This document shows, in pieces, positions 7,581-33,907 of a DNA stretch of 64,000 nucleotides (its first letter is position 1; each line of letters begins with the position of its first letter). The DNA is taken from NCBI GenBank assembly GCA_045643605.1, contig JAZULC010000010.1, positions 96,573 through 160,572 of the forward strand. The letters run 5' to 3'. The DNA comes from Alphaproteobacteria bacterium (GTDB lineage Bacteria > Pseudomonadota > Alphaproteobacteria > RF32 > CAG-239). The notes under the pieces were generated by a model. That model was not told the DNA's origin, ran no database searches, and was given only the letters and a program-made list of their open reading frames with translations. Position numbers and translations under genes: made by a program.

Positions 7581-8456
7581 TTAGTCCTTCACCAGTTTTG
7601 CTTCATATATTCCGTATTTTTTTAATTTGTCAAGCATATCCATTGCGTCAGTTTCATCATAAAAAGGTCCGACTCTTACGCGATAAAATGTTGTATTGTT
7701 AATATCTATTGTGGAAATTCCGGCTGTACCAAACTCAGATAATGTATCTTTCAAATTTTTTGCTAACACATTTTGTGAAAATGATCCGGCTTGCACAAAA
7801 AATTGTTTTTTTGCTGTAGGTTTTTTTGGTGAAATATTTGTAATTTGCATAGGTTTTATAGGTTCTTGTTTTACCGGATTCATTAAATATTCATCAGGTA
7901 TTTTTTTGCCTAACAGAGCATTTTTTAACATCTTACTTTCTTTTTCTAGAATTTCTACTTTTACTTTAGTAATGCCTTTATCTTTATATCCAAGAAGTGT
8001 TGCTCCTCTCTTGGAAATATCAATAATTCTGTTTTTTGCATACGGACCTCTGTCATTTACTCTTAATATCAAAGAACGTCCATTTTCTAAATTTGTAACC
8101 CTCACAATAGATGGTAGAGGTAAAGTACGATGAGCTGCAGTTAATGTATTCATATCGTATTTTTCACCATTTGCAGTTTTTTTAGCATGAAATGCTTCTC
8201 CATACCAAGATGCCATACCTACTTCAGAATAGTTGTAATCTTCTTTGGGATAATACCATTTGCCTGAAATTTTATATGGATTTCCGACTTTATAAAAACC
8301 ACCTTGTTTTTTTATTCTTGTAATCTGTGCAGAATAACTTTCACCGCCATAAATTTCTGCCCCTTTATCTAAAACGCAAGAGGTTAACAATATTGATACC
8401 GCAAAGATAAATGCAAGTGATAAAAAAGTTGTACATATTTTCATTATTTTTTTCAT
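7581..8456 (-). CDS. rlpA: septal ring lytic transglycosylase RlpA family lipoprotein with C-terminal SPOR domain
   Basis: DPBB/RlpA core (MASWYGEAFHAKKTANGEKYD...LPLPS..RVTNLENGRS) and SPOR-like C-terminus. Lipoprotein start MKKIMKICTT at 8456 is preferred over the upstream in-frame ATG at 8552. Confidence 0.8.
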   Translation of the reverse strand: MKKIMKICTTFLSLAFIFAVSILLTSCVLDKGAEIYGGESYSAQITRIKKQGGFYKVGNPYKISGKWYYPKEDYNYSEVGMASWYGEAFHAKKTANGEKYDMNTLTAAHRTLPLPSIVRVTNLENGRSLILRVNDRGPYAKNRIIDISKRGATLLGYKDKGITKVKVEILEKESKMLKNALLGKKIPDEYLMNPVKQEPIKPMQITNISPKKPTAKKQFFVQAGSFSQNVLAKNLKDTLSEFGTAGISTIDINNTTFYRVRVGPFYDETDAMDMLDKLKKYGIYEAKLVKD

Positions 8457-15806: not shown

Positions 15807-16735
15807 ATTCCCAATAACCCTTTTGCAAAACTTGCACTTTCAAAAACATCTAAATCTTCTATTTGTTCGCCTATCCCTATAAAATAAATCGGCAAATTAT
15901 ATTGTTGTGAAACTGCAACTAAAATACCTCCTTTTGAAGTTCCGTCAAGTTTGGTAATAATTAATCCGGAAACATCACTAATTTTATTGAATGATTCAAC
16001 TTGAGAAAGTGCATTTTGACCGGTTGTTGCATCTATGGTAAGCAAAGTCTGATGTGGTGCATCAGGAATAACTTTTTTTATAACTCGATTTATTTTTGCC
16101 AACTCGTCCATTAAATCAGTTTTATTTTGTAATCTTCCGGCAGTATCAATAAATACAATATCATCATGTTGTTTTATTGCCTCTGTCAAACCATCAAAAC
16201 AAAGTCCAGCGGCATCACAACCGTTTTCTCCCGAAAACACTCTTATATTATTTCTGTTACCCCATATTTTTAACTGTTCTACTGCGGCTGCTCTGAATGT
16301 ATCTGCAGCAATAAAAGAAATTTTTGGTTGTCTGTGGCCAAAAACATCACTTTTTTGAAATCTTGCTGCTAATTTTCCTATAGTAGTAGTTTTTCCTCCG
16401 CCGTTTACTCCAACCATTAAAATAACAAACGGCTTTTTATTATCATCAATAACAAAAGTTTTTTCATTATTTTTAAGAATTTGAGAAATTTTGTCTGCCA
16501 AAATCAGTTTAATATCATCTTCACTGCAATCTTTACCGAATTTTTCTTTTTTTAATTCATCAATAATTTTTTTTGTTACTGCTACACCCAAATCAGCCAT
16601 CAATAACGTATCTTCTAAACTTTCTAATGTTTGATTATCTATTTTTTTCTTTGAAAAAATATCACTTAATTCTAAAGATAAATGAGATGAAGATTTTTTA
16701 AGTCCATTGCTTAATCTTTGAAAAAAATTATTCAT
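15803..16735 (-). CDS. ftsY: signal recognition particle-docking protein FtsY
   Basis: SRP GTPase NG domain (GVNGGGKTTTIGKLA, DTAGR, TKLDG). Confidence 0.9.
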   Translation of the reverse strand: MNNFFQRLSNGLKKSSSHLSLELSDIFSKKKIDNQTLESLEDTLLMADLGVAVTKKIIDELKKEKFGKDCSEDDIKLILADKISQILKNNEKTFVIDDNKKPFVILMVGVNGGGKTTTIGKLAARFQKSDVFGHRQPKISFIAADTFRAAAVEQLKIWGNRNNIRVFSGENGCDAAGLCFDGLTEAIKQHDDIVFIDTAGRLQNKTDLMDELAKINRVIKKVIPDAPHQTLLTIDATTGQNALSQVESFNKISDVSGLIITKLDGTSKGGILVAVSQQYNLPIYFIGIGEQIEDLDVFESASFAKGLLGI

Positions 16736-24467: not shown

Positions 24468-25259
24468 TTGAGGTTAAAATTTACAATGTTTGAAATATTT
24501 CATACAATTTTTCGATATAGAGAAAAAGAAAGCCCTGATGTGCTCGGTTTATACCCTGAAAAAGTACACGTGGATGCTATGCCGGAACGCCGTTATTTAT
24601 GGACATCAAGGGTTTTGGTAATCATTTCATTTATATGTATATGCCTGTGCATGATGCTTTCTTTATGTATATATATTATGATACCTCAGCGACAAGTGTC
24701 CCCAATTTTTTTAAGAATTAATGATTATTTTTCTCAATTAGAAGTTGTTCAGCCTGGAGAAATTAATTATCCGGTCAGCGATTTAGTAACCGAGGCCAAT
24801 GTTCGTGAATATATTTTGCGCAGATATTTAGTTACGGATGATTACGACGAAATGTTATCCCGTTGGCGAGTAGGTTCTATTTTTTATTGGTTTTCATCTC
24901 CAAGAATATATGCTGAATTCGCTGATGGAGAAGCATTAAATAACTTAAGACTTTTCCGTGAAAAATCTTTAATCAGAAGTGTAACCATACATTGGGCACG
25001 TCCTTTAGCTCAAAATTTATGGCAGGTTCAGTTTGAAACTATAGATGTTATTCCGGAAGAAGATATGCCAAAAACAACTATTTGGCGAGCAACACTACGT
25101 GTGGGTTATTTTGATATTCCTTTTTCTAAAAAAGATGATGCAATTTTGAATCCTTACGGATTTATGGTTATAGGATATTCTCTTGCCTTTCACAGCAATC
25201 CGGATTCTAATGCTTCTTATATGGAAACTGTTAAGAAACAAGCAGAAGACGAGTATTAA
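24468..25259 (+). CDS. virB8: VirB8-family type IV secretion system protein (orphan copy)
   Basis: Bitopic topology (cytoplasmic N-terminus, one TM, periplasmic NTF2-like domain). VirB8-like stretches ...NVREYILRRYLVTDDYDEM... and C-terminal NPYGF. Confidence 0.5.
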   Translation: MRLKFTMFEIFHTIFRYREKESPDVLGLYPEKVHVDAMPERRYLWTSRVLVIISFICICLCMMLSLCIYIMIPQRQVSPIFLRINDYFSQLEVVQPGEINYPVSDLVTEANVREYILRRYLVTDDYDEMLSRWRVGSIFYWFSSPRIYAEFADGEALNNLRLFREKSLIRSVTIHWARPLAQNLWQVQFETIDVIPEEDMPKTTIWRATLRVGYFDIPFSKKDDAILNPYGFMVIGYSLAFHSNPDSNASYMETVKKQAEDEY

Positions 25260-25330: not shown

Positions 25331-25406
25331 AGGGGTATAGCTCAGTTGGTAGAGCATCGGTCTCCAAAACCGAGTGTCGTGAGTTCGAATCTTACTGCCC
25401 CTGCCA
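25331..25406 (+). tRNA. tRNA-Trp(CCA)
   Basis: 76-nt cloverleaf: AGGGGTA acceptor, anticodon loop cTCCAaa, GTTCGAATC T-loop, 3' CCA. Confidence 0.9.
25359..25405 (+). repeat. attL core (3' half of tRNA-Trp)
   Basis: 47/47 identical to 33829..33875. Confidence 0.75.
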
Positions 25407-25695
25407 ATAATATCAAGGCTTTGAAGGTTTTTCTTCAGAGCCTTTTTTATTTGCAGGGACACTGGTGGGACAACAAAAAATATAAAATACCAATAGATGC
25501 AAAAAATATTTTCTATTCAAAATCGGCTAAAAATATAAGGCTACGATGCCCGTAGTCCCCTAAATGTCCCTCAAAAATGCGGCTTTTAAAAATGTATAAT
25601 AATTTCAAATAGATATATAGTCTGTCATTCAGTTTGTTAATCTTGTTGACATTGTTTCTTATTTATTGTAGTCTATTTGTATCAACTAAGGAGAT

Positions 25696-26763
25696 ATGAA
25701 AATGGCTTCAATAGAAAAAAGAATAAGCAAAAAAGGTGTAGTTTCTTATAGGGTAAAAATAAGACTATACGGTTATCCGGTTCAAACAGCTACATTTGAG
25801 AAATTAACACTGGCTAAAGAATGGGCTTCGAAGACAGAAACGGAAATAAAAGAAGGCAGATATTTTAACAGGTTAAAATCCCAAAAATATACTGTTTCCG
25901 ACATCATTGAGAAATATAAAAAAATGTTGAAGGCACAAAATAAATACGCAAGTACAGACTTAACAGCTCATTTTAGATGGTGGCAAGAAAATATCGGTAA
26001 ATACAGTCTTGCTGAAGTAACACCGGCGCTTATATCTGATATGAAGAATAAATTGTTGACAGAGCAAAATTCCAGAGGGCAGAATCGCTCCCCTTCCACA
26101 GTTAATCGGTATTTGACCACAATGCAAGGTGTCTTTTCTGTCGCAGTTAAGGAGTGGGAGCTTATCGATATAAACCCATTTTTTAGAGTTAAAAAGCTCA
26201 AAGAACCACAAGGTCGTATCAGATTTTTAGAAAAAGACGAAATGGAAAGATTGCTGAAAGAGTGTAAGAAGGCCGCTAATCCGTATTTATATCCTGCGGT
26301 AATTGTTGCTCTATCTACAGGTGCGAGAAAAATGGAAGTTCTTAGCCTGAAATGGGAAAATGTAGATTTACCTAATGAGCGAGCAATTCTTCAGGATACA
26401 AAGAACGGAGAAAGAAGAAGTATAAATCTGATTGGCGAAGTCAATAGCATAATAAGCGAGCTATACCATAATCGAAAACCTGATGATGTTTATGTGTTTC
26501 CAAGTCAGGATGGCAAAAAGCCTTTTGACATCATGAGAAGCTGGAGAGCTGCAATAAAGCGAGCTGGAATAGAGAATTTTAGATTTCACGATTTAAGACA
26601 TACTACAGCAAGTTATTTAGCAATGAATGGGAAATCATTAGGTGAAATTGCTGATGTATTAGGACACAAAACGTTACAAATGGTCAAGCGATATGCCCAT
26701 TTGTCGGATGCGCATAAAAAATCGCTGACAGCAGATATGAATAAAACAATTTTTGGAGAGTAA
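25696..26763 (+). CDS. int: tyrosine-type site-specific integrase (phage integrase family)
   Basis: N-terminal SAM-like domain plus C-terminal catalytic domain with R...HDLRHT...Y (ARKMEV..., FHDLRHTTASYL, LGHKTLQMVKRYAH). Confidence 0.9.
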   Translation: MKMASIEKRISKKGVVSYRVKIRLYGYPVQTATFEKLTLAKEWASKTETEIKEGRYFNRLKSQKYTVSDIIEKYKKMLKAQNKYASTDLTAHFRWWQENIGKYSLAEVTPALISDMKNKLLTEQNSRGQNRSPSTVNRYLTTMQGVFSVAVKEWELIDINPFFRVKKLKEPQGRIRFLEKDEMERLLKECKKAANPYLYPAVIVALSTGARKMEVLSLKWENVDLPNERAILQDTKNGERRSINLIGEVNSIISELYHNRKPDDVYVFPSQDGKKPFDIMRSWRAAIKRAGIENFRFHDLRHTTASYLAMNGKSLGEIADVLGHKTLQMVKRYAHLSDAHKKSLTADMNKTIFGE

Positions 26764-26766
26764 GAA

Positions 26767-27426
26767 ATGAATAAAAATATTCCAGATTATACAAAACCAG
26801 ATGGGAAATGGGGATGGTTTCATTATTATAATCCGGTAAAAATAAATGCATTCAAAAATATTAATAAAATCGCTAACTCATATCATATAAGAGCTTTAAG
26901 CAAAATATTCAAAAACAAAAAAGAAATATCTTTAGATAAAATAAATCAATATATATCAGATGCAAATAAAGGCTGTATATATGAAGGCTATTCTGTAGAT
27001 AATTCTCCTATTCTTAATGTGTTATACTCACCTTTTCTGGATATCAAAATGAAAAATAGAAAGACTACACAGAAAGATATTGTAAGTTTATCACTATTTA
27101 TTTTGCTGTGCTTAGATGTTATAGTAAGGAACTCTAAGTATTTGTTTATAGATGATACAATAATAAAATCACATGATTTAATTTATGCATTAAAAGTAAT
27201 CGAACCGCGCTTAAATATAGAAAAGCAGCTAGGCAAAATTTATGGAGCAAACAAAAACAAGAGCAAAAGAGAAAAAATATTAGAAGACGCTAAAAAACAT
27301 GGCAGTGATTTTTGGCAAGGAGAAAGGAAGTATATTAGCAGAATAAATTTAATTATAGAAAAATATAAAGTTTGCGAAAACACCGCAAAAAAATATTATA
27401 AAGATATAAAAAAAATAATATCTTAG
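26767..27426 (+). CDS. hypothetical protein (island, immediately downstream of int)
   Basis: 219-aa Lys-rich ORF, 4-nt gap after int. No recognisable motif. Confidence 0.45.
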   Translation: MNKNIPDYTKPDGKWGWFHYYNPVKINAFKNINKIANSYHIRALSKIFKNKKEISLDKINQYISDANKGCIYEGYSVDNSPILNVLYSPFLDIKMKNRKTTQKDIVSLSLFILLCLDVIVRNSKYLFIDDTIIKSHDLIYALKVIEPRLNIEKQLGKIYGANKNKSKREKILEDAKKHGSDFWQGERKYISRINLIIEKYKVCENTAKKYYKDIKKIIS

Positions 27427-27433
27427 AAAAAAA

Positions 27434-27461
27434 TAGTTCCATTAGGCTTCCTATTGGAATT
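27434..27461 (+). terminator. possible hairpin terminator/operator after orf219
   Basis: ttccattagg-cttc-ctattggaa inverted repeat followed by a T-run. Confidence 0.3.
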
Positions 27462-27541
27462 GTTTTTATATATCAATAGTTCAAAATACACCTCAGAAAG
27501 TCACAATGGTTGTGGCTAAATAATAGTAAAAGAGGTGTAAA

Positions 27542-27751
27542 ATGGAATATCCAACATTACTGACAATAAATGATTTTTGCGCAAAGCATAAATTTTTGTC
27601 ACCTGCAGCCTTAAGAAATAAGATTTTTTATGCCAGTCAGAACGAAATGGCAAAATTTAAGGTAACTACTAAATTAGGTAAGCGAGTTTATATAAACGAA
27701 GCAAATTTTTTCAAATGGATTGAGGCTCTTAACGGAGGTAATCATGAATAA
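27542..27751 (+). CDS. alpA: AlpA-family phage transcriptional regulator / excisionase-like HTH protein
   Basis: 69-aa winged-HTH protein (LTINDFCAKHKFLSPAALRNKIF...). Good RBS. Position downstream of int. Confidence 0.6.
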   Translation: MEYPTLLTINDFCAKHKFLSPAALRNKIFYASQNEMAKFKVTTKLGKRVYINEANFFKWIEALNGGNHE

Positions 27752-27950
27752 TTTAACCCCATTAAAGGCCATAAAACTTCGCTGTATAGATTGTTCCGGC
27801 GATGACCATCCGCGTAAATGTGTTTCAAAAAATTGCGCTCTTTATCCATTTCGCCTAGGTAAAAACACTTTGCTTTCTAAAAGAAATGTAAGCGAAAAAC
27901 AAAGAGAAATATTGCTGAAAAACATTCAAAAAAGATGGGAGAAGAGATGA
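27744..27950 (+). CDS. small Cys4 zinc-finger protein (Ogr/Delta-like late activator candidate)
   Basis: Start MNNLTPLKAIKLRCIDCSGDDHPRKCVSKNCALY... gives C-x2-C-x9-C-x4-C, with a basic C-terminus. RBS GGAGG. Confidence 0.4.
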   Translation: MNNLTPLKAIKLRCIDCSGDDHPRKCVSKNCALYPFRLGKNTLLSKRNVSEKQREILLKNIQKRWEKR

Positions 27951-28588
27951 TGAAAAAAAAGGAAAGATTTTTTTGCAACTGCATTTCCGTCAATAATCAA
28001 TCAGAAAAGGGCTTTTCATATTTTAAAAGTATAGCTAAATCAAGCAAGTCTTTAGTAAATAATAATATAATATATAATTTAAATAACATAAATATACCAC
28101 GCTGGAAGGATTTAAGTAAAGTCCAAAAGGTTGAGTTGTTTTTTGATTATATCGTTGATATTAACTGGTACGCGATAACGTTAAGATTTTCAGATGAGTT
28201 CGTTAGAGGATGTATTCATAATTTAAAAATTACAGATTTTATTCGGCGGCGTATTAATGAGAATTTCAAAAATAGGCTCGGATATGTGCCGGAATATTTA
28301 TTTTGTATTGAGTTTGATAAGACAACTTTTCATATTCATGGAGCAATAAATTCCAATAACAATATAGACCTAATCAAAAAAATATTAAAAACTACAGCAT
28401 TTAATAAAATGTATCTTAAGTTGCCGGAACAATATAAACTTCGATGTGTGATGATTTACGATGCAAAAGGATGGAAGCAATACATTCTTAAAAATCGCAA
28501 TCACCCCAGATTTGATATTTATATTTGCCGAGAAATTACGCAAAAAACAAAAGATATTTACAATAAAAGATTGAAAAATTTTTATTAG
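27935..28588 (+). CDS. putative HUH-family rolling-circle replication initiator
   Basis: Three motifs in canonical order and spacing: YAITLRF (motif 1-like), FHIHGAI (HUH, motif 2), KQYILKN (catalytic Tyr, motif 3). Confidence 0.4.
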   Translation: MGEEMMKKKERFFCNCISVNNQSEKGFSYFKSIAKSSKSLVNNNIIYNLNNINIPRWKDLSKVQKVELFFDYIVDINWYAITLRFSDEFVRGCIHNLKITDFIRRRINENFKNRLGYVPEYLFCIEFDKTTFHIHGAINSNNNIDLIKKILKTTAFNKMYLKLPEQYKLRCVMIYDAKGWKQYILKNRNHPRFDIYICREITQKTKDIYNKRLKNFY

Positions 28589-28638
28589 ATAAAATTTTGC
28601 GATAAGCCATATATAGAAAATATATCAAGGAAAAAATC

Positions 28639-28854
28639 ATGAATAAAATATTGAAAGAAAATAGAGATATGAGCAGTATTTTGATTGAGTATTTAGAAAA
28701 TGCTGAAAACGGTAACAATCTCAAAGAGGAAATTGCTAAAGGTATAATAAAAAAAGCGATGGATGGTAATGTAAGAGCGTTTGAAACCATCGCTAAGTTT
28801 ATCGGAGAATATCCGGCATTAAAAAATATTTCTAAATTAGATAAAAATAGATAA
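28639..28854 (+). CDS. hypothetical small protein (71 aa)
   Basis: ORF with RBS inside the island. No motif. Confidence 0.4.
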   Translation: MNKILKENRDMSSILIEYLENAENGNNLKEEIAKGIIKKAMDGNVRAFETIAKFIGEYPALKNISKLDKNR

Positions 28855-28874
28855 ATTAGGCAAGAGGAATAAAG

Positions 28875-29486
28875 ATGATTTATGGATATGTGCGAGTTAG
28901 TACGGATAAGCAGGATTGCGAAAATCAAAAACTCGGGATAGAGCAAAAAGCAAAACAGCTTGGATTTACTATTGAAAAATACATAGAAGATGATGGAGTT
29001 TCCGGAACAAAAGAACCGGAAGAAAGACATTTGGGTAAAATACTAAAAAAAATACAGTATGGTGATGTAATTATATGCTCAGAACTCTCCAGATTAGGCA
29101 GAAAACTTTTTATGATTATGAGAATTTTGGAACATTGTATGAAGTGCGGAGCAAAAGTCTATACCGTAAAAGATAATTATGAGCTCGGAGATGATTTAGT
29201 TTCTAAAGTTTTGGCTTTTTCTTTTGGGCTTTCGGCAGAAATAGAGCGCAACCTTATAAGCCAGCGCACAAAAGAAGCTTTAGCAAGGAGGAAACTCTCC
29301 GGAAAGTACATCGGTCGTAAAAAGGGAAGTAAGAATTTACACTGCAAACTTGAAGGCAAAGACGACCAAATTAAAAAATTCCTAAATAGAAAAATATCTA
29401 AAAGCATGATTGCTAAAAACTTAAAAGTAAGCATACCTACACTTAATAAATATATTTGCGAGAAAAAACTTATAACGAAGGCTTAA
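28875..29486 (+). CDS. serine recombinase (resolvase/invertase family) with C-terminal HTH
   Basis: MIYGYVRVSTDKQD catalytic Ser motif, SRLGR, C-terminal HTH (SKSMIAKNLKVSIPTLNKYI). 203 aa, typical of Hin/Gin/Tn3-type enzymes. Confidence 0.85.
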   Translation: MIYGYVRVSTDKQDCENQKLGIEQKAKQLGFTIEKYIEDDGVSGTKEPEERHLGKILKKIQYGDVIICSELSRLGRKLFMIMRILEHCMKCGAKVYTVKDNYELGDDLVSKVLAFSFGLSAEIERNLISQRTKEALARRKLSGKYIGRKKGSKNLHCKLEGKDDQIKKFLNRKISKSMIAKNLKVSIPTLNKYICEKKLITKA

Positions 29487-29659
29487 ATTTGAAAAAATAA
29501 CAAACTTTAAATTTTGATACTTGATCATAAAATATTTGAAAAATAATAAATTTTTAGTTGCTATAATATAATTAATTATTTACTATAGGCACAAATAATT
29601 AGGGTTGGCTATTTTTTTATTTGCGGCAGCCCTTAGAGCTTTAAAATAGGGGTTGTGCT

Positions 29660-32068
29660 ATGTCGTATGCAAATAATTTACGCGAAGAAGAACTTAAAAA
29701 CAAAATAGCGAATGATTATTTCAAATCTTATGATTCAACCCAAATAATAGGAAATATCGATTTCTGTATTGCTAAATACATTGATTCTTCAGAAGGGCGG
29801 CAAGGGGCATTGTTTGATTTTGAAACAACGACTCAATCTTTTCTATGGGCAGAAGCTAAAAGGGGAACTACTCACAATATTTACGAATCTTTCGTTCAGC
29901 TAATTATGACCATCGGAAAAGCGAGAACTTTTGAAAAGTATCTTCCTCCGATTTTTTTTGGTGCTTTTGATGCAGAAAAAATAGCTTTTATCGAATATGA
30001 CACTATATCAGAAATATTTACTCAAAATGATTTCGACTGGACTATTGCCCCGTCGAATCATGAGAGCAAAGAGTTTAAGCAATTATTTAACCTCGTACAA
30101 CATGAATTAGAAAAAAAATCTTTCATATTTTATTATGATAAGGATGAAAATGAACTGAAAAAATTTATAAAAAATAATTTTGTTCTAGGCCGTAAAGGTA
30201 TTTCCCAAATTATTATTACTAAAAATAATTTTACAACGGTATATTTCAAGTGGTTGCAAGAGGTCAAGCCGACAATCAACATAAACTGGGAAAAATCTAA
30301 AAAGCACGGCATTATAGATGCTGATTTTTATTTGGCTGATTTATTGTCAGAAGATAATACTTCAATTAAAGACAGCCTATTTGTATTACTCTCTCGAAAC
30401 AAATATGAAATTGTAAAAGACAATGACAATGAACTAGGTCTGCAGTCAACTTATGATGTTTCCTTCAATGATGGTCAAAAGGCACATATTCGCTTTTGGA
30501 GTATGTATAAACGTCCTCCCCGTAAAGAATTTTGGAATTATATTGTTGAAAGGCGCGACTTATTAGTTCCTCAAGATATCCGAGAAAGAAAAGGTTCATT
30601 TTTTACTCCGCAAAAATGGGTTGAATTAAGCCAAAAATATTTAGAAGATGTTTTGGGCGAAAATTGGCAGGATGAATATTATATTTGGGATTGTTGTGCC
30701 GGAACAGGAAATATGGAAAACGGTTTAACCAATAAATATAATATTTGGGCTTCAACACTTGATAAAGCCGATGTTGATGTTATGAAAGACCGTATAAAAA
30801 ATGGAGCTAATTTGCTTGAAAGTCACGTTTTTCAGATGGACTTCTTAAATGATGATTTTGAAGATAAATGTCCGAAAGACCTGCTGGAAATAATTAATAA
30901 TCCGGAAAAAAGAAAAAAATTAGTTATTTATATTAACCCTCCTTATGCGGAAGCGACTACAGCAACAACAGTTACAGGTAATGGAGCAAATAAATCAAAA
31001 GTATCCATATCAAATAAAACTTATGAGAGGTATAAAAACTTAATAGGTAATGCCAGTAATGAACTGTTTGCGCAGTTTTTTGTTCGTATTTATAAAGAAT
31101 TATCTGGCTGTATACTTGGAGAATTTTCAACTTTGAAAATTCTCCAATCGAGCAACTTTTCCAAGTTTCGTAAAATATTTTTAGCAGACTTAAAAAAAAT
31201 GTTTGTCGTTCCGGCAAACACTTTTGATAATGTTAAAGGACAATTTCCGATTGGTTTTATGATTTGGGATACTACCAACAAAACAGAATTTATATCTAAA
31301 CAATCAGATGTTTATGATAAAAATGCAGTAGAATTAGCAAGTAAAACTTTTTATACTCTTGATGCAAACAGAGGAACAATAAATAGGTGGATAAAATTAA
31401 TAGAAAAACAAGGTGAAAGTACAATTGGGTTTTTGCCAAACCCAGCACCTGATTATCAGAATAATAATTATCTATTTTTGACTATTCTATGTGGTTCTAG
31501 GCACGTCAATTATACACCTATTAATACTTTTACCTTATTAAGTTGTTGTCTATACTTTTCCGTTCGTCATTGTATTGAAGCTACGTGGCTGAATGATAGA
31601 GACCAATTCTTATACCCGAATGATGGATGGCAAGATGATAAAGAGTTCCAATCTGATTGTTTAGCTTTTACTCTTTTTCATGGTCAAAACCGTATAAAAT
31701 CTCAAGATGGCATAAATCACTGGATTCCATTTACTGAAAAGGAAGTAGAACCATTAAATTCTTTCGAAAGTCATTTTATGACTGATTATATAAAGGAAAA
31801 TCAGATTGTATTTTCCAATGCTGCGCAAGTTGTTTTTGCTGCCGGAAGAGAATTATGGAGATATTACCACAAGCAACCAAATGCTAATCCTGATGCAAGT
31901 TTTTATGATATTCGCGCTTATTTCCAAGGAATAGATAAAAGCGGAAAAATGAATAAGGATAGCCAAGATAAAATGTATATGGAACTTATATCTGATTTGC
32001 GTAAAAAAGAGAGAGCTCTGGCGGAAAAAATATCTGAAAAAGTTTATGAATACGGATTTTTAAAATGA
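29660..32068 (+). CDS. fused restriction endonuclease / N6-adenine DNA methyltransferase, Type IIL/IIG (MmeI-like) candidate
   Basis: N-terminal PD-(D/E)xK-like motif (LFDFETT...LWAEAKRG). Gamma-class MTase motifs in order: X (GSFFTPQKWVELSQ), I (WDCCAGTGNMENG), IV (VIYINPPYAE). About 300 aa follow, consistent with a TRD. Confidence 0.55.
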   Translation: MSYANNLREEELKNKIANDYFKSYDSTQIIGNIDFCIAKYIDSSEGRQGALFDFETTTQSFLWAEAKRGTTHNIYESFVQLIMTIGKARTFEKYLPPIFFGAFDAEKIAFIEYDTISEIFTQNDFDWTIAPSNHESKEFKQLFNLVQHELEKKSFIFYYDKDENELKKFIKNNFVLGRKGISQIIITKNNFTTVYFKWLQEVKPTININWEKSKKHGIIDADFYLADLLSEDNTSIKDSLFVLLSRNKYEIVKDNDNELGLQSTYDVSFNDGQKAHIRFWSMYKRPPRKEFWNYIVERRDLLVPQDIRERKGSFFTPQKWVELSQKYLEDVLGENWQDEYYIWDCCAGTGNMENGLTNKYNIWASTLDKADVDVMKDRIKNGANLLESHVFQMDFLNDDFEDKCPKDLLEIINNPEKRKKLVIYINPPYAEATTATTVTGNGANKSKVSISNKTYERYKNLIGNASNELFAQFFVRIYKELSGCILGEFSTLKILQSSNFSKFRKIFLADLKKMFVVPANTFDNVKGQFPIGFMIWDTTNKTEFISKQSDVYDKNAVELASKTFYTLDANRGTINRWIKLIEKQGESTIGFLPNPAPDYQNNNYLFLTILCGSRHVNYTPINTFTLLSCCLYFSVRHCIEATWLNDRDQFLYPNDGWQDDKEFQSDCLAFTLFHGQNRIKSQDGINHWIPFTEKEVEPLNSFESHFMTDYIKENQIVFSNAAQVVFAAGRELWRYYHKQPNANPDASFYDIRAYFQGIDKSGKMNKDSQDKMYMELISDLRKKERALAEKISEKVYEYGFLK

Positions 32069-32070
32069 TG

Positions 32071-32132
32071 TGTCATTTTCTGACATTTGCAGATTTGTTT
32101 AATTTTGACATTGCATAAAAAAATGATAAAAT
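32071..32132 (+). promoter_or_regulatory. putative sigma70 promoter with upstream palindromic operator for the small-ORF/terS module
   Basis: TGTCA-N5-TGACA palindrome at 32071..32085. TTGACA (32105..32110), 16-nt spacer, TAAAAT (32127..32132). Strong RBS follows (AAGGAGAAAG). Confidence 0.35.
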
Positions 32133-32154
32133 AAGAAAAAAAAGGAGAAAGAAA

Positions 32155-32346
32155 ATGTGGTTTGAAAGAAAAAATATAACGCATGAAGAAGCTGAGAAAG
32201 AATATAAAAGACTTATAGCTTTGGAAGAGCGTGAAGATGATGAGTTCGATGAATACAGAATTTCACATATGACTAATGCTGATGATTTAGAAGCGTTAAA
32301 AGGCATAGAAGATTATAATGGAACAAAAAAAACAAAGAAAAAATAA
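32155..32346 (+). CDS. hypothetical small acidic protein (63 aa)
   Basis: Strong RBS, Glu/Asp-rich. Confidence 0.4.
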   Translation: MWFERKNITHEEAEKEYKRLIALEEREDDEFDEYRISHMTNADDLEALKGIEDYNGTKKTKKK

Positions 32347-32355
32347 TATAAAGAT

Positions 32356-32562
32356 ATGAAGATGACTTATGAAGAATTTAAAACAAAATCTAAAGAAAGT
32401 GCTAGAGAGCAATTAAAAGCTTTTGACAAAGAAGAAGTTGAGGAATTTTTACAAAGTGAAGAAGTGGAAAATGTTTTGAAGTCAGAGTGGAATTGTTGGC
32501 AGAATACGCATAGTGAAGAGAAAAAATCGGATATGGGTTATTGCCTAGCAATGATGTTTTAA
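32356..32562 (+). CDS. hypothetical small acidic protein (68 aa), C-terminal ...GYCLAMMF
   Basis: An intact paralog of the frameshifted ORF at 32819..32968. Confidence 0.4.
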   Translation: MKMTYEEFKTKSKESAREQLKAFDKEEVEEFLQSEEVENVLKSEWNCWQNTHSEEKKSDMGYCLAMMF

Positions 32563-32583
32563 AAAATAAAAGGAGCTGAATAA

Positions 32584-32817
32584 ATGTCCGAATTTTTAGA
32601 AAAATATTTGGAATTAAGAAAACATTGGAGCAAATTAGCTCATGAAGGCAAAGATGATGAATATACAAAACTCGTTGAGAAAGCTCATGATGAACTATAC
32701 CCTAAGTTTTCAAGAGAAGACTGGGAATATTTAATAAAAACAGCTCCGAATGCTATGGCAAAAATTGAATTTAAAAAGAGCATGGATTCTTTTATCGGTA
32801 AACAGGAAGGCAAGTAA
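32584..32817 (+). CDS. hypothetical small protein (77 aa)
   Basis: Strong RBS AAGGAG. Confidence 0.45.
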   Translation: MSEFLEKYLELRKHWSKLAHEGKDDEYTKLVEKAHDELYPKFSREDWEYLIKTAPNAMAKIEFKKSMDSFIGKQEGK

Positions 32818-32818
32818 T

Positions 32819-32968
32819 ATGATTGAAAATGTAAAAAATTGGGCAAAAGATTTGGGCTATGATGATGTTGTCTTCTTGAAGAAGTCGAAGAATACTTGCG
32901 GAGTGATGAAGTCAAAGAAACTTTGCAAGAGCATTATAGATGTCGTGGAGAGAACTGCAATCCGATAG
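32819..32968 (+). pseudogene. frameshifted paralog of the 32356..32562 small acidic protein
   Basis: Frame A gives MIENVKNWAKDLGYDD... A second frame continues ...EEVEEYLRSDEVKETLQEHYRCRGENCNPIGDCLALMF*, which parallels ...EEVEEFLQSEEVENVLKSEWNCWQ...GYCLAMMF* of the upstream ORF. Confidence 0.35.
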
Positions 32969-33011
32969 GCGATTGCTTAGCTTTGATGTTTTAATAAGTA
33001 GAGGCTTAAGA

Positions 33012-33227
33012 ATGACGAAAGAAGAGATAACAAAAAAAGTTGGAGCCGAATCTTTTTTTTACCAGACCATGTGGAATGGTTATAAAGTCTATGGTTTAGA
33101 GTTTGGGGAAGATGCTACGATAGGACTTCCTATGTTTATTCTTGAAAAAGGTAGTAAAGCAAGATTGACTACTGAAGATGAAGCATTTGCTATTATTGAT
33201 ACTTTTGAGGATGGAAAAGATGACTAA
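33012..33227 (+). CDS. hypothetical small protein (71 aa)
   Basis: Internal start MTKEEITKKVGAESFF... with RBS. Overlaps the terS start by 8 nt. Confidence 0.35.
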   Translation: MTKEEITKKVGAESFFYQTMWNGYKVYGLEFGEDATIGLPMFILEKGSKARLTTEDEAFAIIDTFEDGKDD

Positions 33228-33621
33228 AACTAATAACTCAAAATATATAGAAACACGTGGTCGTAAGACTGTTATGACTCCCGAAATAATAGATAAATTA
33301 GAGGGGGCTTTTTCTTTGGGATGTACCGATATAGAAGCTTGTTTTATGGCCAATATAAGCAAAACAACCCTCTATAATTATCAAAATACTCATCCGGATT
33401 TTTTGGAGCGAAAAGAGCAATTAAAAGACTCTCTTATTTTGCAAGCTCGTCATGTTATATATGATGCCTTACAAAATAATGATAAAGAAATGGCAAAATG
33501 GTATTTAGAGCGTAAGAAAAAATCTGAGTTCAGCACAAGACAAGAAGTAACAGGAGAAGATTGTCACCCACTCATTCCAAAAATTGAAATTCTTCCTATG
33601 GCTGTTATGAGAGAAGATTAA
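33220..33621 (+). CDS. terS: phage terminase small subunit-like HTH protein (TerS)
   Basis: MTKTNNSKYIETRGRKTVMTPEIIDKLEGAFSLGCTDIEACFMANISKTTLYNYQNTHPDFLERKEQLKDSLILQARHV...EMAKWYLERKKKSEF matches the common proteobacterial small-terminase pattern (KYTPE...IC..L..G.S....C.......ST.Y.W......F...Y.......AKWYLERK..EF). No terL follows. Confidence 0.6.
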   Translation: MTKTNNSKYIETRGRKTVMTPEIIDKLEGAFSLGCTDIEACFMANISKTTLYNYQNTHPDFLERKEQLKDSLILQARHVIYDALQNNDKEMAKWYLERKKKSEFSTRQEVTGEDCHPLIPKIEILPMAVMRED

Positions 33622-33828
33622 TTTTTTTTGTAAATATAAAAAAATAATCCAAATGGGATATTGCGCTTAATTATAATTTTTAATCTGTTTTTAAGGGACA
33701 AATATGGGTCAGTAAGATGAAAAAATAACAATAAATAATAATAAATAAAAACAAACTTATTTTTCATAACTGTTTGATTTTATTGTTTTTATTTCTTCTT
33801 GCTTGTTGCTATTTTTAATCTGGATAAT

Positions 33829-33875
33829 TCTCCAAAACCGAGTGTCGTGAGTTCGAATCTTACTGCCCCTGCCAA
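33829..33875 (+). repeat. attR (duplicated 3' half of tRNA-Trp)
   Basis: 47/47 identical to 25359..25405. Confidence 0.75.
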
Positions 33876-33882
33876 AATAAAA

Positions 33883-33907
33883 ATCGCCAGAAATGGCGAT
33901 TTTTTTA
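33883..33907 (+). terminator. rho-independent terminator (probably the original tRNA-Trp terminator, displaced by the insertion)
   Basis: atcgcca-gaaa-tggcgat followed by TTTTTTT, immediately after attR. Confidence 0.45.

What the first reader, a model, noticed from the sequence alone, without database searches (positions are those of the whole stretch)
25331..33907. Satellite-like (PICI-like) integrative element at tRNA-Trp with terS but no terL or structural genes
A perfect 47-bp direct repeat of the tRNA-Trp 3' half (25359..25405 and 33829..33875) brackets an 8.5-kb insert. Its gene order is int, orf219, alpA-like, Zn-finger, HUH Rep candidate, orf71, serine recombinase, fused RM enzyme, five small ORFs, terS. 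It has its own integration, excision, replication and small-terminase functions but no capsid, tail or terL. That matches phage-inducible chromosomal islands, which hijack a helper phage's TerL and capsid. The displaced tRNA terminator sits right after attR at 33883..33907. Satellites of this type are poorly described in alphaproteobacteria, and this one carries defence cargo.
Basis: partly seen in the sequence, partly recalled or inferred. Interest (0 to 1): 0.8.

Follow-up and report, generated by a model that had tools for sequence, protein, structure and literature searches.

The report
Small tRNA island carrying phage TerS
An 8.5-kb mobile island sits in a tRNA-Trp gene of a low-GC Gram-negative bacterium; it belongs to a previously undescribed island family with a rolling-circle replication protein, and this member has captured a phage DNA-packaging subunit, so it probably rides in phage capsids, which remains unproven.

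Summary
An intact tRNA-Trp (25331-25406) and a perfect 47-nt repeat of its 3' part (25361-25407 / 33829-33875) bracket an 8,468-bp insert with the stated gene order. No TerL, portal, capsid, tail or lysis gene lies inside it or beyond attR.

The element belongs to a small, unannotated family of 8.1-8.8 kb islands at tRNA-Trp, tRNA-Met or tRNA-Lys in gut metagenomes. The shared backbone is int, a gene abutting int, a 69-aa winged-helix-like protein, a 4-Cys protein, a Rep-class HUH endonuclease and usually a serine recombinase. Cargo varies and is mostly defence-like.

TerS is not a family core gene. It occurs in this island and in one other tRNA-Trp island (87% identity, dN/dS 0.13). It is 63-69% identical to TerS proteins that directly precede TerL in E217-like myophage contigs. 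Its family is also the last gene of Streptococcus suis satellite prophages.

The island fails the PICI core set: no primase-replicase, no capsid-morphogenesis gene, AlpA unconfirmed. Best reading (about 0.45): a new satellite-like variant that excises, replicates by rolling circle and is packaged headful by a helper. Rivals are a conjugatively mobilised island and TerS as an anti-packaging decoy.

The parts
25331..25406 (+). Intact tRNA-Trp (anticodon CCA); its 3' 46 nt lie in the attL core
   Evidence: ARAGORN; Rfam tRNA 68.3 bits
25361..25407 (.). attL core: left copy of the perfect 47-nt direct repeat
   Evidence: the repeat finder family D2, 100% identity
25415..25444 (+). Island-borne replacement terminator hairpin for the tRNA
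   Evidence: Terminator scan, 13-pair stem plus T run; an equivalent hairpin is present in L004 and L012
25456..25472 (+). Two direct GGGACA motifs 11 nt apart; putative arm-type integrase sites on the int-proximal arm
   Evidence: Invariant in the window, L004, L007 and L012; their function is inferred
25554..25570 (-). Two inverted copies of the same motif (AGTCCC / TGTCCC)
   Evidence: Conserved TGTCCC-n5-TGTCCC block in four islands
25696..26763 (+). Tyrosine integrase; the true start is probably at 25702, MASIEK
   Evidence: Pfam Phage_integrase 1.2e-32 and phrog_1 1e-71; 68-69% identical to the integrases of L004, L007 and L012
26767..27426 (+). orf219, unknown function; abuts int (4-nt gap); poorly conserved partner gene (219-350 aa) in every island
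   Evidence: No HMM hit; 32% identical to the L004 equivalent, which overlaps int by 4 nt
27542..27751 (+). orf69, conserved small protein with a winged-helix / excisionase-like pattern (unproven)
   Evidence: 67-97% identity across islands; no Pfam, PHROG or PDB hit. The L010 protein in the same position hits HTH_17 at E=6e-4; hhalign between the two is not significant
27720..27950 (+). orf76, 4-Cys (CxxC...C....C) putative zinc-binding protein
   Evidence: Four invariant Cys plus a PFRLGKN block in four islands
27935..28588 (+). HUH endonuclease of the Rep class (deposited form is 213 aa, starting at 27947)
28639..28854 (+). orf71, conserved small protein
   Evidence: 44-51% identical in L007 and L010; phrog_2412 at 5.7e-5 and a weak DUF5681 hit
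28875..29486 (+). Small serine recombinase (resolvase/invertase type) at the backbone-cargo junction
   Evidence: Pfam Resolvase 2e-33. NCBIfam Mpi-family invertase 268.7 bits against a cutoff of 272. Present in L004, L010 and L012 at 54-72% identity, absent in L007
29660..32068 (+). 802-aa gamma-class N6-adenine methyltransferase fusion, type IIG-like (cargo)
   Evidence: Invariant CAGTGN and NPPY motifs. Foldseek top hits are BpuSI, CamA, DrdV, MmeI and LlaBIII, on a low-confidence model with pLDDT 64. No Pfam, NCBIfam, PADLOC or PHROG model. More than 8,000 relatives
32105..32132 (+). Near-consensus sigma-70 promoter (TTGACA-16-TGnTAAAAT) ahead of the small-ORF/terS module, preceded by a TGTCA-n5-TGACA palindrome
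   Evidence: 11 of 12 matches with an extended -10; sequence read directly. Consensus match only
32155..33227 (+). Cluster of about five small, mostly acidic ORFs (63, 68, 77, about 49 and about 71 aa) of unknown function
   Evidence: ORF list. No Pfam or PHROG family. Partly shared with L020, in rearranged order. orf77 is weakly similar to a 70-aa phage ORF in L017
33178..33621 (+). Small terminase subunit TerS (deposited form is 133 aa, starting at 33220)
   Evidence: phrog_4102 at 1.9e-20. 63-69% identical to TerS proteins lying next to TerL in phage contigs L017, L019 and L023. 87% identical to the L020 island TerS, dN/dS 0.13
33695..33711 (+). GGGACA / GGGTCA direct pair on the attR-proximal arm
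   Evidence: Conserved in the window, L020, L004, L007 and L012
33773..33794 (+). Conserved 22-mer TTTGATTTTATTGTTTTTATTT about 35 nt before the core
   Evidence: Nearly invariant in five islands, including islands at a different tRNA
33829..33875 (.). attR core: displaced 3' part of tRNA-Trp
   Evidence: the repeat finder family D2
33879..33904 (+). Native tRNA-Trp terminator, displaced by the insertion
   Evidence: Terminator scan, 11-pair stem plus T run

Best explanation
The 8,468-bp insert is a site-specific integrative island of a previously uncatalogued family.

Shown:
- It sits in the 3' half of tRNA-Trp between perfect 47-nt repeats.
- It carries a tyrosine integrase, and conserved GGGACA motifs lie on both arms.
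- It encodes a Rep-class HUH endonuclease.
- It carries a phage-type TerS kept under purifying selection, with no TerL and no virion genes.

Inferred mechanism:
1. On infection or induction of a helper phage, Int excises the island as a circle. The adjoining orf219 and the 69-aa winged-helix-like protein probably act as directionality or regulatory factors.
2. The HUH Rep nicks an origin and drives rolling-circle replication, which yields head-to-tail concatemers.
3. The island TerS loads the helper's TerL onto island DNA. Alternatively, a pac site lying inside the captured terS gene does so. The helper TerL is of the Terminase_3 type, from an E217/Pa193-like myophage of about 43 kb.
4. Roughly five island copies are packaged headful into helper capsids and transduced.
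5. Int re-integrates the island at tRNA-Trp in the new cell.

The 802-aa type IIG-like enzyme is defence-type cargo. Functionally the island would be a phage satellite, but built on a backbone different from PICI, P4, PLE, cfPICI and PICMI.
For: - Integration: intact tRNA, perfect repeat and integrase.
- Family: five independent islands share int, X, orf69, orf76, Rep, orf71 and (usually) the serine recombinase, with bounded sizes of 8,060, 8,468, 8,778, 8,784 and 8,791 bp despite different cargo, and one has a different integrase.
- Arm motifs are conserved across islands that use different tRNAs.
- Past inter-species transfer: the attL and attR tRNA halves in L007 differ by compensatory T-stem changes, and the tRNA-Trp fragment in L020 differs from the window's in the same way.
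- Rep: invariant HUH and YxxK motifs in Rep order, and an HUH fold.
- TerS: phrog_4102. Homologues at 63-69% identity directly precede TerL, portal, Mu-F and major capsid in three phage contigs, and at 44-45% in two IMG/VR contigs.
- The C-terminal tail of TerS is retained.
- A second island end, L020, has the order small ORFs, TerS (87%), arm motifs, tRNA-Trp fragment.
- dN/dS for TerS between the two islands is 0.13 at dS 0.81.
- The same TerS family is the terminal gene of 8.7-11 kb Streptococcus suis satellite prophages.
- No phage structural gene lies in the island or next to it.
- Precedent: PICMI satellites replicate by rolling circle and are packaged as concatemers in full-size capsids (PMC10803314).
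Against: - There is no evidence of excision, replication or packaging.
- No helper prophage was found in the 64-kb window.
- TerS is absent from four of the six family members examined. The family as a whole therefore does not depend on it.
- No relative of the Rep occurs in IMG/VR viral contigs or in INPHARED phages, so the backbone has never been caught in a 'viral' data set.
- The AlpA-like assignment is unproven.
- No capsid-size or packaging-interference gene is recognisable.
- The size regularity rests on only five elements and could simply reflect a shared 4-5 kb backbone.
Confidence: 0.45

Rival explanations
1. It is an integrative mobilizable element (a conjugative hitcher). The HUH protein acts as a Rep-like relaxase at an oriT, and the excised island is transferred through a T4SS supplied by another element. 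TerS is incidental cargo or offers a second route.
For: - The backbone (int, small DNA-binding proteins, HUH enzyme) is what integrative mobilizable elements carry.
- Four relatives have no TerS or any other phage gene.
- The family is absent from viral collections.
- A VirB8-domain gene lies directly upstream of the tRNA, so the host may have a T4SS.
- Rep-like relaxases are known in Firmicutes mobilizable elements (own knowledge).
Against: - The motif order is HUH before Tyr, as in Rep proteins. Classical relaxases have the order reversed (own knowledge: Chandler et al. 2013).
- The best structural matches are viral and plasmid Reps and Y1 transposases, not relaxases.
- No coupling protein or accessory Mob gene is present.
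- VirB8 is a lone gene.
- A TerS held at dN/dS 0.13 in two islands needs a phage-related function.
Confidence: 0.2
2. It is a defence island whose TerS is an anti-phage decoy. The island moves rarely, by whatever route. Its cargo slot holds defence genes, and the captured TerS, with the small acidic ORFs, poisons or misdirects the terminase of invading E217-like phages rather than packaging the island.
For: - The same cargo slot in relatives holds defence-type genes: an EcoRI-like methyltransferase with GmrSD/HNH, HipA with an HTH protein, SocA/Panacea, and the 802-aa type IIG-like enzyme.
- The N-terminal DNA-binding half of TerS is about 80% identical to the phage TerS, so it could compete for the same pac site and TerL.
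- The module has its own near-consensus promoter.
- Terminase-targeting defences are described, for example in bioRxiv 10.1101/2025.02.27.640495 (title and abstract seen).
Against: - In known satellites, interference and self-packaging come together, so this reading does not exclude the satellite reading.
- A full-length TerS with a conserved C-terminal tail is competent for productive packaging.
- No experimental precedent for a stand-alone TerS decoy was retrieved here.
Confidence: 0.15
3. It is a degraded prophage remnant, or a duplicated tRNA fragment with no current mobility.
For: TerS is a phage gene, and activity was not tested.
Against: - All ORFs are intact and under purifying selection, with dN/dS 0.08-0.16 for int, Rep, orf69, the 802-aa gene and TerS.
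- The same compact architecture recurs at three different tRNAs with precise repeats.
- Host genes follow attR directly.
- None of the other genes of the TerS-related phage is present in the window.
Confidence: 0.05
4. It is an integrated filamentous (inovirus-like) or other ssDNA phage. This is prompted by the weak match of the Rep to the ORF2/G2P replication-protein family and by the 8.5-kb size.
For: - Pfam REP_ORF2-G2P at E=0.0028, with weak hits also in remote relatives.
- The size lies within the inovirus range (own knowledge).
Against: - No Zot/pI-type ATPase and no hydrophobic coat-like small proteins are present; the small ORFs are acidic and soluble-looking.
- TerS belongs to tailed phages.
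Confidence: 0.03

Closest known systems
PICI (phage-inducible chromosomal islands, including SaPIs and the Streptococcus 'Javan' satellite prophages)
   Same: - Size of about 8-15 kb, and site-specific integration with its own integrase.
- No virion or lysis genes.
- terS is the last gene. The very same TerS family (43-46% identity) ends the S. suis satellite prophages Javan560, Javan594 and Javan559.
- It carries accessory or defence cargo.
   Different: - There is no primase-replicase; a Rep-class HUH endonuclease takes its place.
- No divergent repressor/activator pair exists, since all genes are co-oriented.
- No AlpA, MerR or Stl HMM match, and no capsid-morphogenesis or Ppi/Rpp gene.
- TerS is not conserved across the family.
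- At most 3 of the 5 SatelliteFinder core components are met, which is 'Type C', a class the authors excluded (PMC10085698).
PICMI (phage-inducible chromosomal minimalist islands of Vibrionaceae)
   Same: - Very small, with a minimal int / regulator / replication core plus a variable defence hotspot.
- A gene of unknown function abuts or overlaps int (iolg there; orf219 and its equivalents here).
- There, rolling-circle-like replication and concatemer packaging into full-size capsids were shown experimentally (PMC10803314). That is the mechanism proposed here.
   Different: - PICMI integrates next to fis, uses a DUF3987/DUF5906 primase and has no terS.
- This island integrates in tRNA genes, uses an HUH Rep and (in this member) has terS.
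- No sequence relationship was detected.
Integrative mobilizable elements with Rep-like (HUH) relaxases
   Same: An integrase plus small DNA-binding proteins plus a single HUH enzyme, in a compact island with cargo.
   Different: - No recognised relaxase family, coupling protein or oriT is present.
- It carries a phage TerS.
- Sizes fall in a narrow band.
RS1 and TLC satellite elements of Vibrio filamentous phages (own knowledge, not tested here)
   Same: They are bacterial phage satellites that encode their own HUH rolling-circle initiator and rely on a helper for particles.
   Different: They parasitise inoviruses, integrate at dif through XerCD, and have no integrase or TerS.
Type IIG / IIL restriction-modification enzymes (BpuSI, MmeI, DrdV), for the 802-aa cargo protein
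   Same: A gamma-class N6-adenine methyltransferase core with NPPY, a long N-terminal extension with a conserved D...ExK pattern, and a C-terminal region of target-recognition size.
   Different: - No sequence-level hit to any PDB chain.
- No hit to Pfam, NCBIfam, PADLOC or PHROGs.
- The model has low confidence (pLDDT 64, pTM 0.39).
- Nuclease activity is unproven.

Membership tests
PICI (SatelliteFinder core set, PMC10085698) | Integrase | tested here: met
   Phage_integrase 1.2e-32 and phrog_1 1e-71
PICI (SatelliteFinder core set, PMC10085698) | Regulation module homologous to alpA, merR or stl | tested here: inconclusive
   orf69 has no Pfam, PHROG, NCBIfam or PDB hit. Only its sequence pattern and its position suggest a winged helix. 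Its positional counterpart in L010 hits HTH_17 at E=6e-4, but hhalign between the two gives E=0.2.
PICI (SatelliteFinder core set, PMC10085698) | Primase-replicase module | tested here: not met
   No primase or helicase domain occurs in any ORF. The replication candidate is a 213-aa HUH endonuclease.
PICI (SatelliteFinder core set, PMC10085698) | Capsid-morphogenesis gene | tested here: not met
   No such family was detected. The small ORFs are unassigned, so an unrecognisable analogue cannot be excluded.
PICI (SatelliteFinder core set, PMC10085698) | Small terminase subunit | tested here: met
   phrog_4102 at 1.9e-20; homologues lie next to TerL in phage contigs
PICI (SatelliteFinder core set, PMC10085698) | Absence of tail, holin, portal and connector genes | tested here: met
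   None in the island or its immediate flanks
PICI / any phage satellite | Induction, replication and packaging dependent on a helper phage | not testable with these tools
   This needs read-level or experimental data. No helper prophage is present in the window.
PICMI (PMC10803314) | Integration next to fis; AlpA; DUF3987/DUF5906 primase | tested here: not met
   The integration site is tRNA-Trp. There is no primase domain and no AlpA hit.
PICMI (PMC10803314) | Gene of unknown function overlapping or abutting int (iolg) | tested here: inconclusive
   orf219 starts 4 nt after int, and the L004 equivalent overlaps int by 4 nt. This is a positional resemblance only, with no homology test possible.
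HUH endonuclease superfamily, Rep class | HUH metal-binding motif followed by a catalytic Tyr (YxxK), plus the HUH fold | tested here: met
HUH endonuclease superfamily, Rep class | Origin-specific nicking and initiation of rolling-circle replication | not testable with these tools
   No origin was identified. A conserved imperfect palindrome upstream of orf69 (around 27496-27515, shared with L007) is only a candidate.
Integrative mobilizable element | Relaxase of a recognised MOB family and oriT (with or without a coupling protein) | tested here: inconclusive
   There is no hit to relaxase families and no coupling protein. The motif order is Rep-like. Rep-like relaxases exist, so the role cannot be excluded.
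Small terminase of pac-type tailed phages | Homology to proteins encoded immediately upstream of TerL; N-terminal HTH and C-terminal tail retained | tested here: met
   63-69% identity to TerS in L017, L019 and L023, next to Terminase_3; alignment A8
Type IIG/IIL restriction-modification enzyme (802-aa protein) | SAM-binding motif I and NPPY motif IV of an N6-adenine methyltransferase | tested here: met
   Invariant C345-C346-A-G-T-G-N351 and N426-P-P-Y429; Foldseek hits to BpuSI, CamA, DrdV and MmeI
Type IIG/IIL restriction-modification enzyme (802-aa protein) | N-terminal PD-(D/E)xK nuclease | tested here: inconclusive
   D34, E65 and K67 are invariant, but the N-terminus is modelled at pLDDT below 50. 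There is no HMM, PDB or PADLOC hit.
Inovirus-type prophage | Zot/pI morphogenesis ATPase and small hydrophobic coat proteins | tested here: not met
   None found in the window island or its relatives

The most novel reading that the evidence does not exclude
This would be a previously undescribed family of phage satellites in uncultured gut Gram-negative bacteria.
- Its members are tRNA-integrating islands of about 8.5 kb.
- A Rep-class HUH endonuclease, not a primase-helicase, makes rolling-circle concatemers.
- A cargo slot next to a conserved serine recombinase swaps between defence cassettes and a captured TerS/pac cassette.
- That cassette plugs the island into the headful packaging machinery of E217-like myophages.
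Probability: 0.3. Interest if true: 0.8.

Novelty: new variant of a known kind. Interest (0 to 1): 0.6.

Why it matters
- Known bacterial satellites of tailed phages (P4-like, PICI, cfPICI, PLE, PICMI) all replicate with primase- or helicase-type initiators, and nearly all come from cultured Proteobacteria, Firmicutes or Actinobacteria.
- A satellite lineage built on an HUH rolling-circle Rep, in uncultured low-GC gut diderms, would add an independent origin of phage parasitism.
- It would also give a simple route from replication to packaging, because rolling-circle concatemers are the natural substrate of headful terminases.
- TerS is present in only some members of one backbone family. This offers a natural experiment on how a generic integrative island becomes a satellite by capturing a single phage gene.
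- The family also points to an abundant type IIG-like enzyme family (more than 8,000 relatives) that has no model in Pfam, NCBIfam, PADLOC or PHROGs.

Tried and rejected
1. Empty-site search. Exact-protein look-ups of three flanking genes and of the 802-aa protein found no other contig. The source contig is not in the position index, so no empty attB could be recovered.
2. Organism names. Cluster look-ups returned no names. Host taxonomy stays unresolved beyond 'diderm, 32% GC'. The 'Candidatus Enterousia' label belongs only to a 60%-identical homologue of the cargo enzyme.
3. Rep relatives in other collections. None in IMG/VR with a single sequence or a profile, none in INPHARED phages, none in PLSDB plasmids. 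JGI metagenomes gave one 1.4-kb contig.
4. Integrase scan of species-representative genomes. It found only one true relative, L004.
5. AlpA test of orf69 by Pfam, PHROGs, NCBIfam, a PDB profile search and hhalign. All non-significant.
6. PADLOC on all main island proteins. No hit.
7. Invertible-segment idea for the Mpi-like recombinase. No convincing inverted repeats flank any segment, and no site downstream of the gene is conserved in all four islands compared. Not supported, and its role remains unknown.
8. Search for a helper prophage in the window using the 35 proteins of phage contig L017. Only TerS and one small ORF matched.
9. Excised-circle signal in short related contigs (L009, L011, L015). 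They simply break at the tRNA repeat and are uninformative.
10. Remote Rep relatives from the 1.84-billion representative search were scanned against Pfam. Only weak REP_ORF2-G2P hits appeared, so the Rep cannot be placed in a curated plasmid, phage or relaxase family.
11. Rfam scan. No ncRNA in the island apart from the tRNA.

Full report
**1. Observation**

ARAGORN finds an intact tRNA-Trp(cca) at 25331-25406 on the + strand, and Rfam confirms it at 68.3 bits. The repeat finder reports one outstanding direct repeat in 24-36 kb. It is 47 nt, 100% identical, at 25361-25407 and 33829-33875, with a spacing of 8,468 bp.

The repeat runs from the anticodon loop to just past the CCA end, which is the usual crossover region for tRNA-targeting tyrosine integrases.

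Downstream of attR there is a stem-loop with a T run at 33879-33904. A second hairpin of the same kind lies at 25415-25444, just after the intact tRNA, so the island brings a replacement terminator.

GC content is about 0.29-0.33 inside and 0.32-0.35 outside, so there is no compositional break.

**2. What the genes are**

- **Integrase (25696-26763).** Pfam Phage_integrase 1.2e-32 and phrog_1 1e-71.
- **orf219.** No match in Pfam, PHROGs, NCBIfam or PADLOC.
- **orf69.** No HMM match, so 'alpA-like' is not demonstrated. Its sequence reads like a MerR/excisionase-type winged helix. In the relative L010, the protein in the same position hits HTH_17 at E=6e-4. However, hhalign between the two is not significant, and a PDB profile search gives nothing.
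- **orf76.** Four invariant cysteines (CxxC...C....C) and a PFRLGKN block in four islands. The 'Zn-finger' label is reasonable.
- **217-aa protein (deposited as 213 aa).** An HUH endonuclease.
  - In 24-25 family members, H129-x-H131 and, downstream, Y179-x-x-K182 are invariant.
  - HUH before Tyr is the Rep-class order. Relaxases have the reverse order (own knowledge: Chandler et al. 2013).
  - The only Pfam signal is a sub-threshold REP_ORF2-G2P hit. The same weak hit appears in remote relatives.
- **Serine recombinase (28875-29486).** Resolvase 2e-33. It scores 268.7 bits on NCBIfam's Mpi-family invertase model, whose cutoff is 272.
- **802-aa protein.** No match in any of the four HMM libraries or by sequence in the PDB.
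  - It has more than 8,000 unnamed relatives.
  - Invariant CAGTGN and NPPY motifs are present.
  - A low-confidence model (pLDDT 64) gives Foldseek top hits to BpuSI (type IIG), CamA, M.BseCI, DrdV, MmeI and LlaBIII.
  - It is therefore a gamma-class N6-adenine methyltransferase fusion of type IIG-like build. The nuclease half is suggested only by invariant D34...E65-x-K67.
- **Small ORFs (32155-33227).** No family found.
- **TerS (33178-33621; deposited form 133 aa from 33220).** It hits phrog_4102 'terminase small subunit' at 1.9e-20.

**3. Is the TerS real, and where does it come from?**

Its relatives sit where a TerS should.

- In two IMG/VR contigs (44-45% identity), the homologue directly precedes TerL, portal and a head protein.
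- At 69% identity it directly precedes a Terminase_3 TerL, in L019 and in L017; in L017 (a 43-kb contig), portal, Mu-F and a major capsid protein lie further downstream.
- At 63% identity, L023 shows the same E217/Pa193-like myophage module.
- The island protein is full length. Its N-terminal HTH half is about 80% identical to the phage proteins, and its C-terminal tail resembles theirs.
- None of the other 34 proteins of L017 has a match in the window, apart from one small ORF at E=2e-4.
- The genes beyond attR are GNAT acetyltransferases, a sodium-dependent transporter and tRNA-Leu.

**4. The island belongs to a family, and TerS is not part of its core**

The integrase, the Rep and look-ups by exact protein led to four further islands.

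| Locus | tRNA target | Repeat spacing | Note |
|---|---|---|---|
| L004 | tRNA-Met | 8,060 bp | |
| L007, L008 | tRNA-Met | 8,778 bp | |
| L010 | tRNA-Lys | 8,784 bp | integrase of a different type (Arm-DNA-bind_3) |
| L012 | tRNA-Met | 8,791 bp | |

tblastn defines the shared backbone and its identity to the window. Not every block is detected in every island:

- int, 68-69%
- a poorly conserved gene abutting int (219-350 aa)
- orf69, 70-73%
- orf76, 62-73%
- Rep, 44-68%
- orf71, 44-51%
- in the relatives, an extra Zn-ribbon protein of about 190-204 aa
- the serine recombinase, 54-72% (absent in L007)

After the recombinase the content differs:

- L012: a 798-aa homologue of the cargo enzyme, plus SocA/Panacea with a partner gene
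- L004: an EcoRI-like methyltransferase, a GmrSD_N/HNH nuclease and DUF1810
- L010: HipA with an HTH protein, and small ORFs on the opposite strand
- L007: unknown proteins

None of the four has a TerS homologue at E<=1e-4.

The family is rare. It has 25 Rep clusters among 5.8 billion proteins. Only 40 representatives at E<=1e-10 occur among 1.84 billion. None is in IMG/VR, INPHARED or PLSDB.

Non-coding features are conserved even between islands at different tRNAs:

- two direct GGGACA motifs and two inverted copies on the int-proximal arm
- a GGGACA pair plus a 22-mer on the other arm
- a -35 TTGACA before int

This is what a functional attP with arm-type sites looks like. Binding itself is inferred.

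In L007 the two tRNA-Met halves differ by compensatory T-stem changes. The island therefore brought a tRNA half from another host, which is direct evidence of past inter-species movement.

**5. A second TerS-bearing island**

The closest TerS relative (87%) lies on a 1,690-bp contig from another sample, L020. Aligned to the window, that contig shows the same order: small ORFs, TerS, a non-coding arm with the GGGACA pair and the 22-mer, then a tRNA-Trp 3' fragment.

That fragment differs from the window's tRNA by compensatory T-stem changes, so its host is different. TerS next to attR is thus a stable feature of a sub-lineage.

Between the two islands TerS has dS 0.81 and dN/dS 0.13, similar to int, Rep and the cargo enzyme at 0.08-0.16. 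The gene is being used.

A 250-bp block is 100% identical between the two amid about 80% identity elsewhere. This indicates recent recombination between such islands.

**6. Precedent for this TerS in satellites**

tblastn against deposited phage records finds the same TerS family (43-46% identity) as the terminal or near-terminal gene of the S. suis 'satellite phages' Javan560, 594, 559, 581, 588 and 596, which are 8.7-11.3 kb.

Javan560 has the PICI layout: int, regulators, a replication gene, then the TerS homologue at 7785-8186 of 8,750 bp.

**7. Mechanism**

Shown: integration architecture, an HUH Rep, a captured and selectively maintained TerS, absence of TerL and virion genes, and family-wide size of 8.06-8.79 kb.

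Inferred: excision by Int; rolling-circle replication by Rep, giving concatemers; recognition of the island by its TerS, or by helper TerS at a pac site that may lie within the captured terS gene, as in many pac phages (own knowledge); then headful packaging by the helper's Terminase_3 TerL.

A 43-kb helper head would take about five island copies. PICMI satellites are a documented case of rolling-circle-like replication and concatemer packaging in full-size capsids without capsid remodelling (PMC10803314).

A near-consensus promoter at 32105-32132, preceded by a TGTCA-n5-TGACA palindrome, heads the small-ORF/terS module. This is a consensus match only.

**8. Rivals**

- **(a) Mobilizable element.** The backbone fits, four relatives have no phage gene, and a VirB8-domain gene lies directly upstream. 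Against this, the HUH enzyme is Rep-class and resembles Reps rather than relaxases, there is no coupling protein, and the conserved TerS needs explaining.
- **(b) TerS as an anti-packaging decoy in a defence slot.** The slot carries defence genes in relatives, and the TerS DNA-binding half is close to the phage's. This does not exclude self-packaging.
- **(c) Prophage remnant.** Rejected on the basis of intact, constrained genes, recurrent precise architecture and host genes at both flanks.
- **(d) Inovirus-like prophage.** Rejected, because there is no Zot-type ATPase or coat-like protein, and TerS belongs to tailed phages.

**9. Comparison with known systems**

Against the SatelliteFinder PICI definition of int, regulator, primase-replicase, capsid morphogenesis and terS (PMC10085698), the island meets int and terS. 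It is inconclusive for the regulator and fails the other two. That would be 'Type C', a class the authors set aside as unreliable. It also fails the PICMI model (fis site, primase).

It works like a minimal PICI or PICMI but is not a member of either family.

The host is a diderm (LptG, MltA, MltB). An alphaproteobacterial identity could not be tested with these tools.

**10. Verdict**

The more interesting result is the family. It has a conserved HUH-Rep backbone of constant size and a swappable cargo slot, and one sub-lineage has acquired a myophage TerS.

- Probability that it is a mobile integrative island of this family: about 0.95.
- Probability that this member is a functional phage satellite: about 0.45.
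- Novelty: new variant of a known kind.
- Interest: 0.6.

Noticed in passing
window 24468-25259 (+): A lone VirB8-domain gene (Pfam VirB8, 60.9 bits) lies directly upstream of the tRNA-Trp. No other T4SS gene is beside it; its neighbours are an Ig-domain protein and a NUDIX hydrolase.
   Followed up: partly
window 31116-31147: A perfect 15+15-nt palindrome (TTGGAGAATTTTCAA nn TTGAAAATTCTCCAA) lies inside the 802-aa gene. The homologous stretch in L003 is also palindromic. One arm resembles the sequence at the start of the attR core.
   Followed up: no
window 32520-32770 versus L020 21-270: A 250-bp block is 100% identical between two TerS-bearing islands from different samples, while the flanking shared sequence is about 80% identical. 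This indicates recent recombination between islands.
   Followed up: partly
L004 14187-16444; L017 9137-9988; L019 1108-1887; L002 803-1570: The L004 island carries an EcoRI-like methyltransferase plus a GmrSD_N/HNH nuclease, a type IV restriction type that targets modified DNA (own knowledge). The TerS-related phages encode TAGT or glucosyl-HMC glucosyltransferase-like genes next to terS. This hints at an arms race over DNA hypermodification.
   Followed up: no
L007 7051-7106 versus 15829-15884; L020 about 1600-1690: The attL and attR tRNA halves differ by compensatory T-stem substitutions. The islands therefore carry tRNA halves from earlier hosts, which shows inter-species transfer.
   Followed up: yes
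window 28875-29486; L004, L010, L012: An Mpi-like small serine recombinase sits exactly at the junction of conserved backbone and variable cargo in 4 of 5 islands and is absent in L007. No invertible segment was found. L010 and L012 share a conserved stretch just downstream of the gene that the window lacks. Its role (multimer resolution or cargo exchange) is unknown.
   Followed up: partly
window 29660-32068; P0001-P0120; L003: The 802-aa type IIG-like enzyme belongs to a family with more than 8,000 relatives in gut metagenomes (named sources include Paludibacteraceae, Bacteroidales and Candidatus Enterousia). No model for it exists in Pfam, NCBIfam, PADLOC or PHROGs. In L003 an 85% homologue sits outside any island, next to a 336-aa unknown gene.
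   Followed up: partly
L009 versus L007: Contig L009 joins L007 position 13332 directly to 20125 at 100% identity. This is either a 6.8-kb deletion spanning the island's right part and the flank, or an assembly chimera.
   Followed up: no
window 27496-27515: An imperfect palindrome GTCACAATGGTTGTGGC lies upstream of orf69 and is conserved with L007. It is a candidate operator or rolling-circle origin hairpin.
   Followed up: no
window 32819-33227 versus L020 303-733: Two small ORFs of the terS module are paralogous and occur in swapped order in L020. The window copy beginning MIENVKNW looks truncated (about 49 aa against 72 aa in L020).
   Followed up: no
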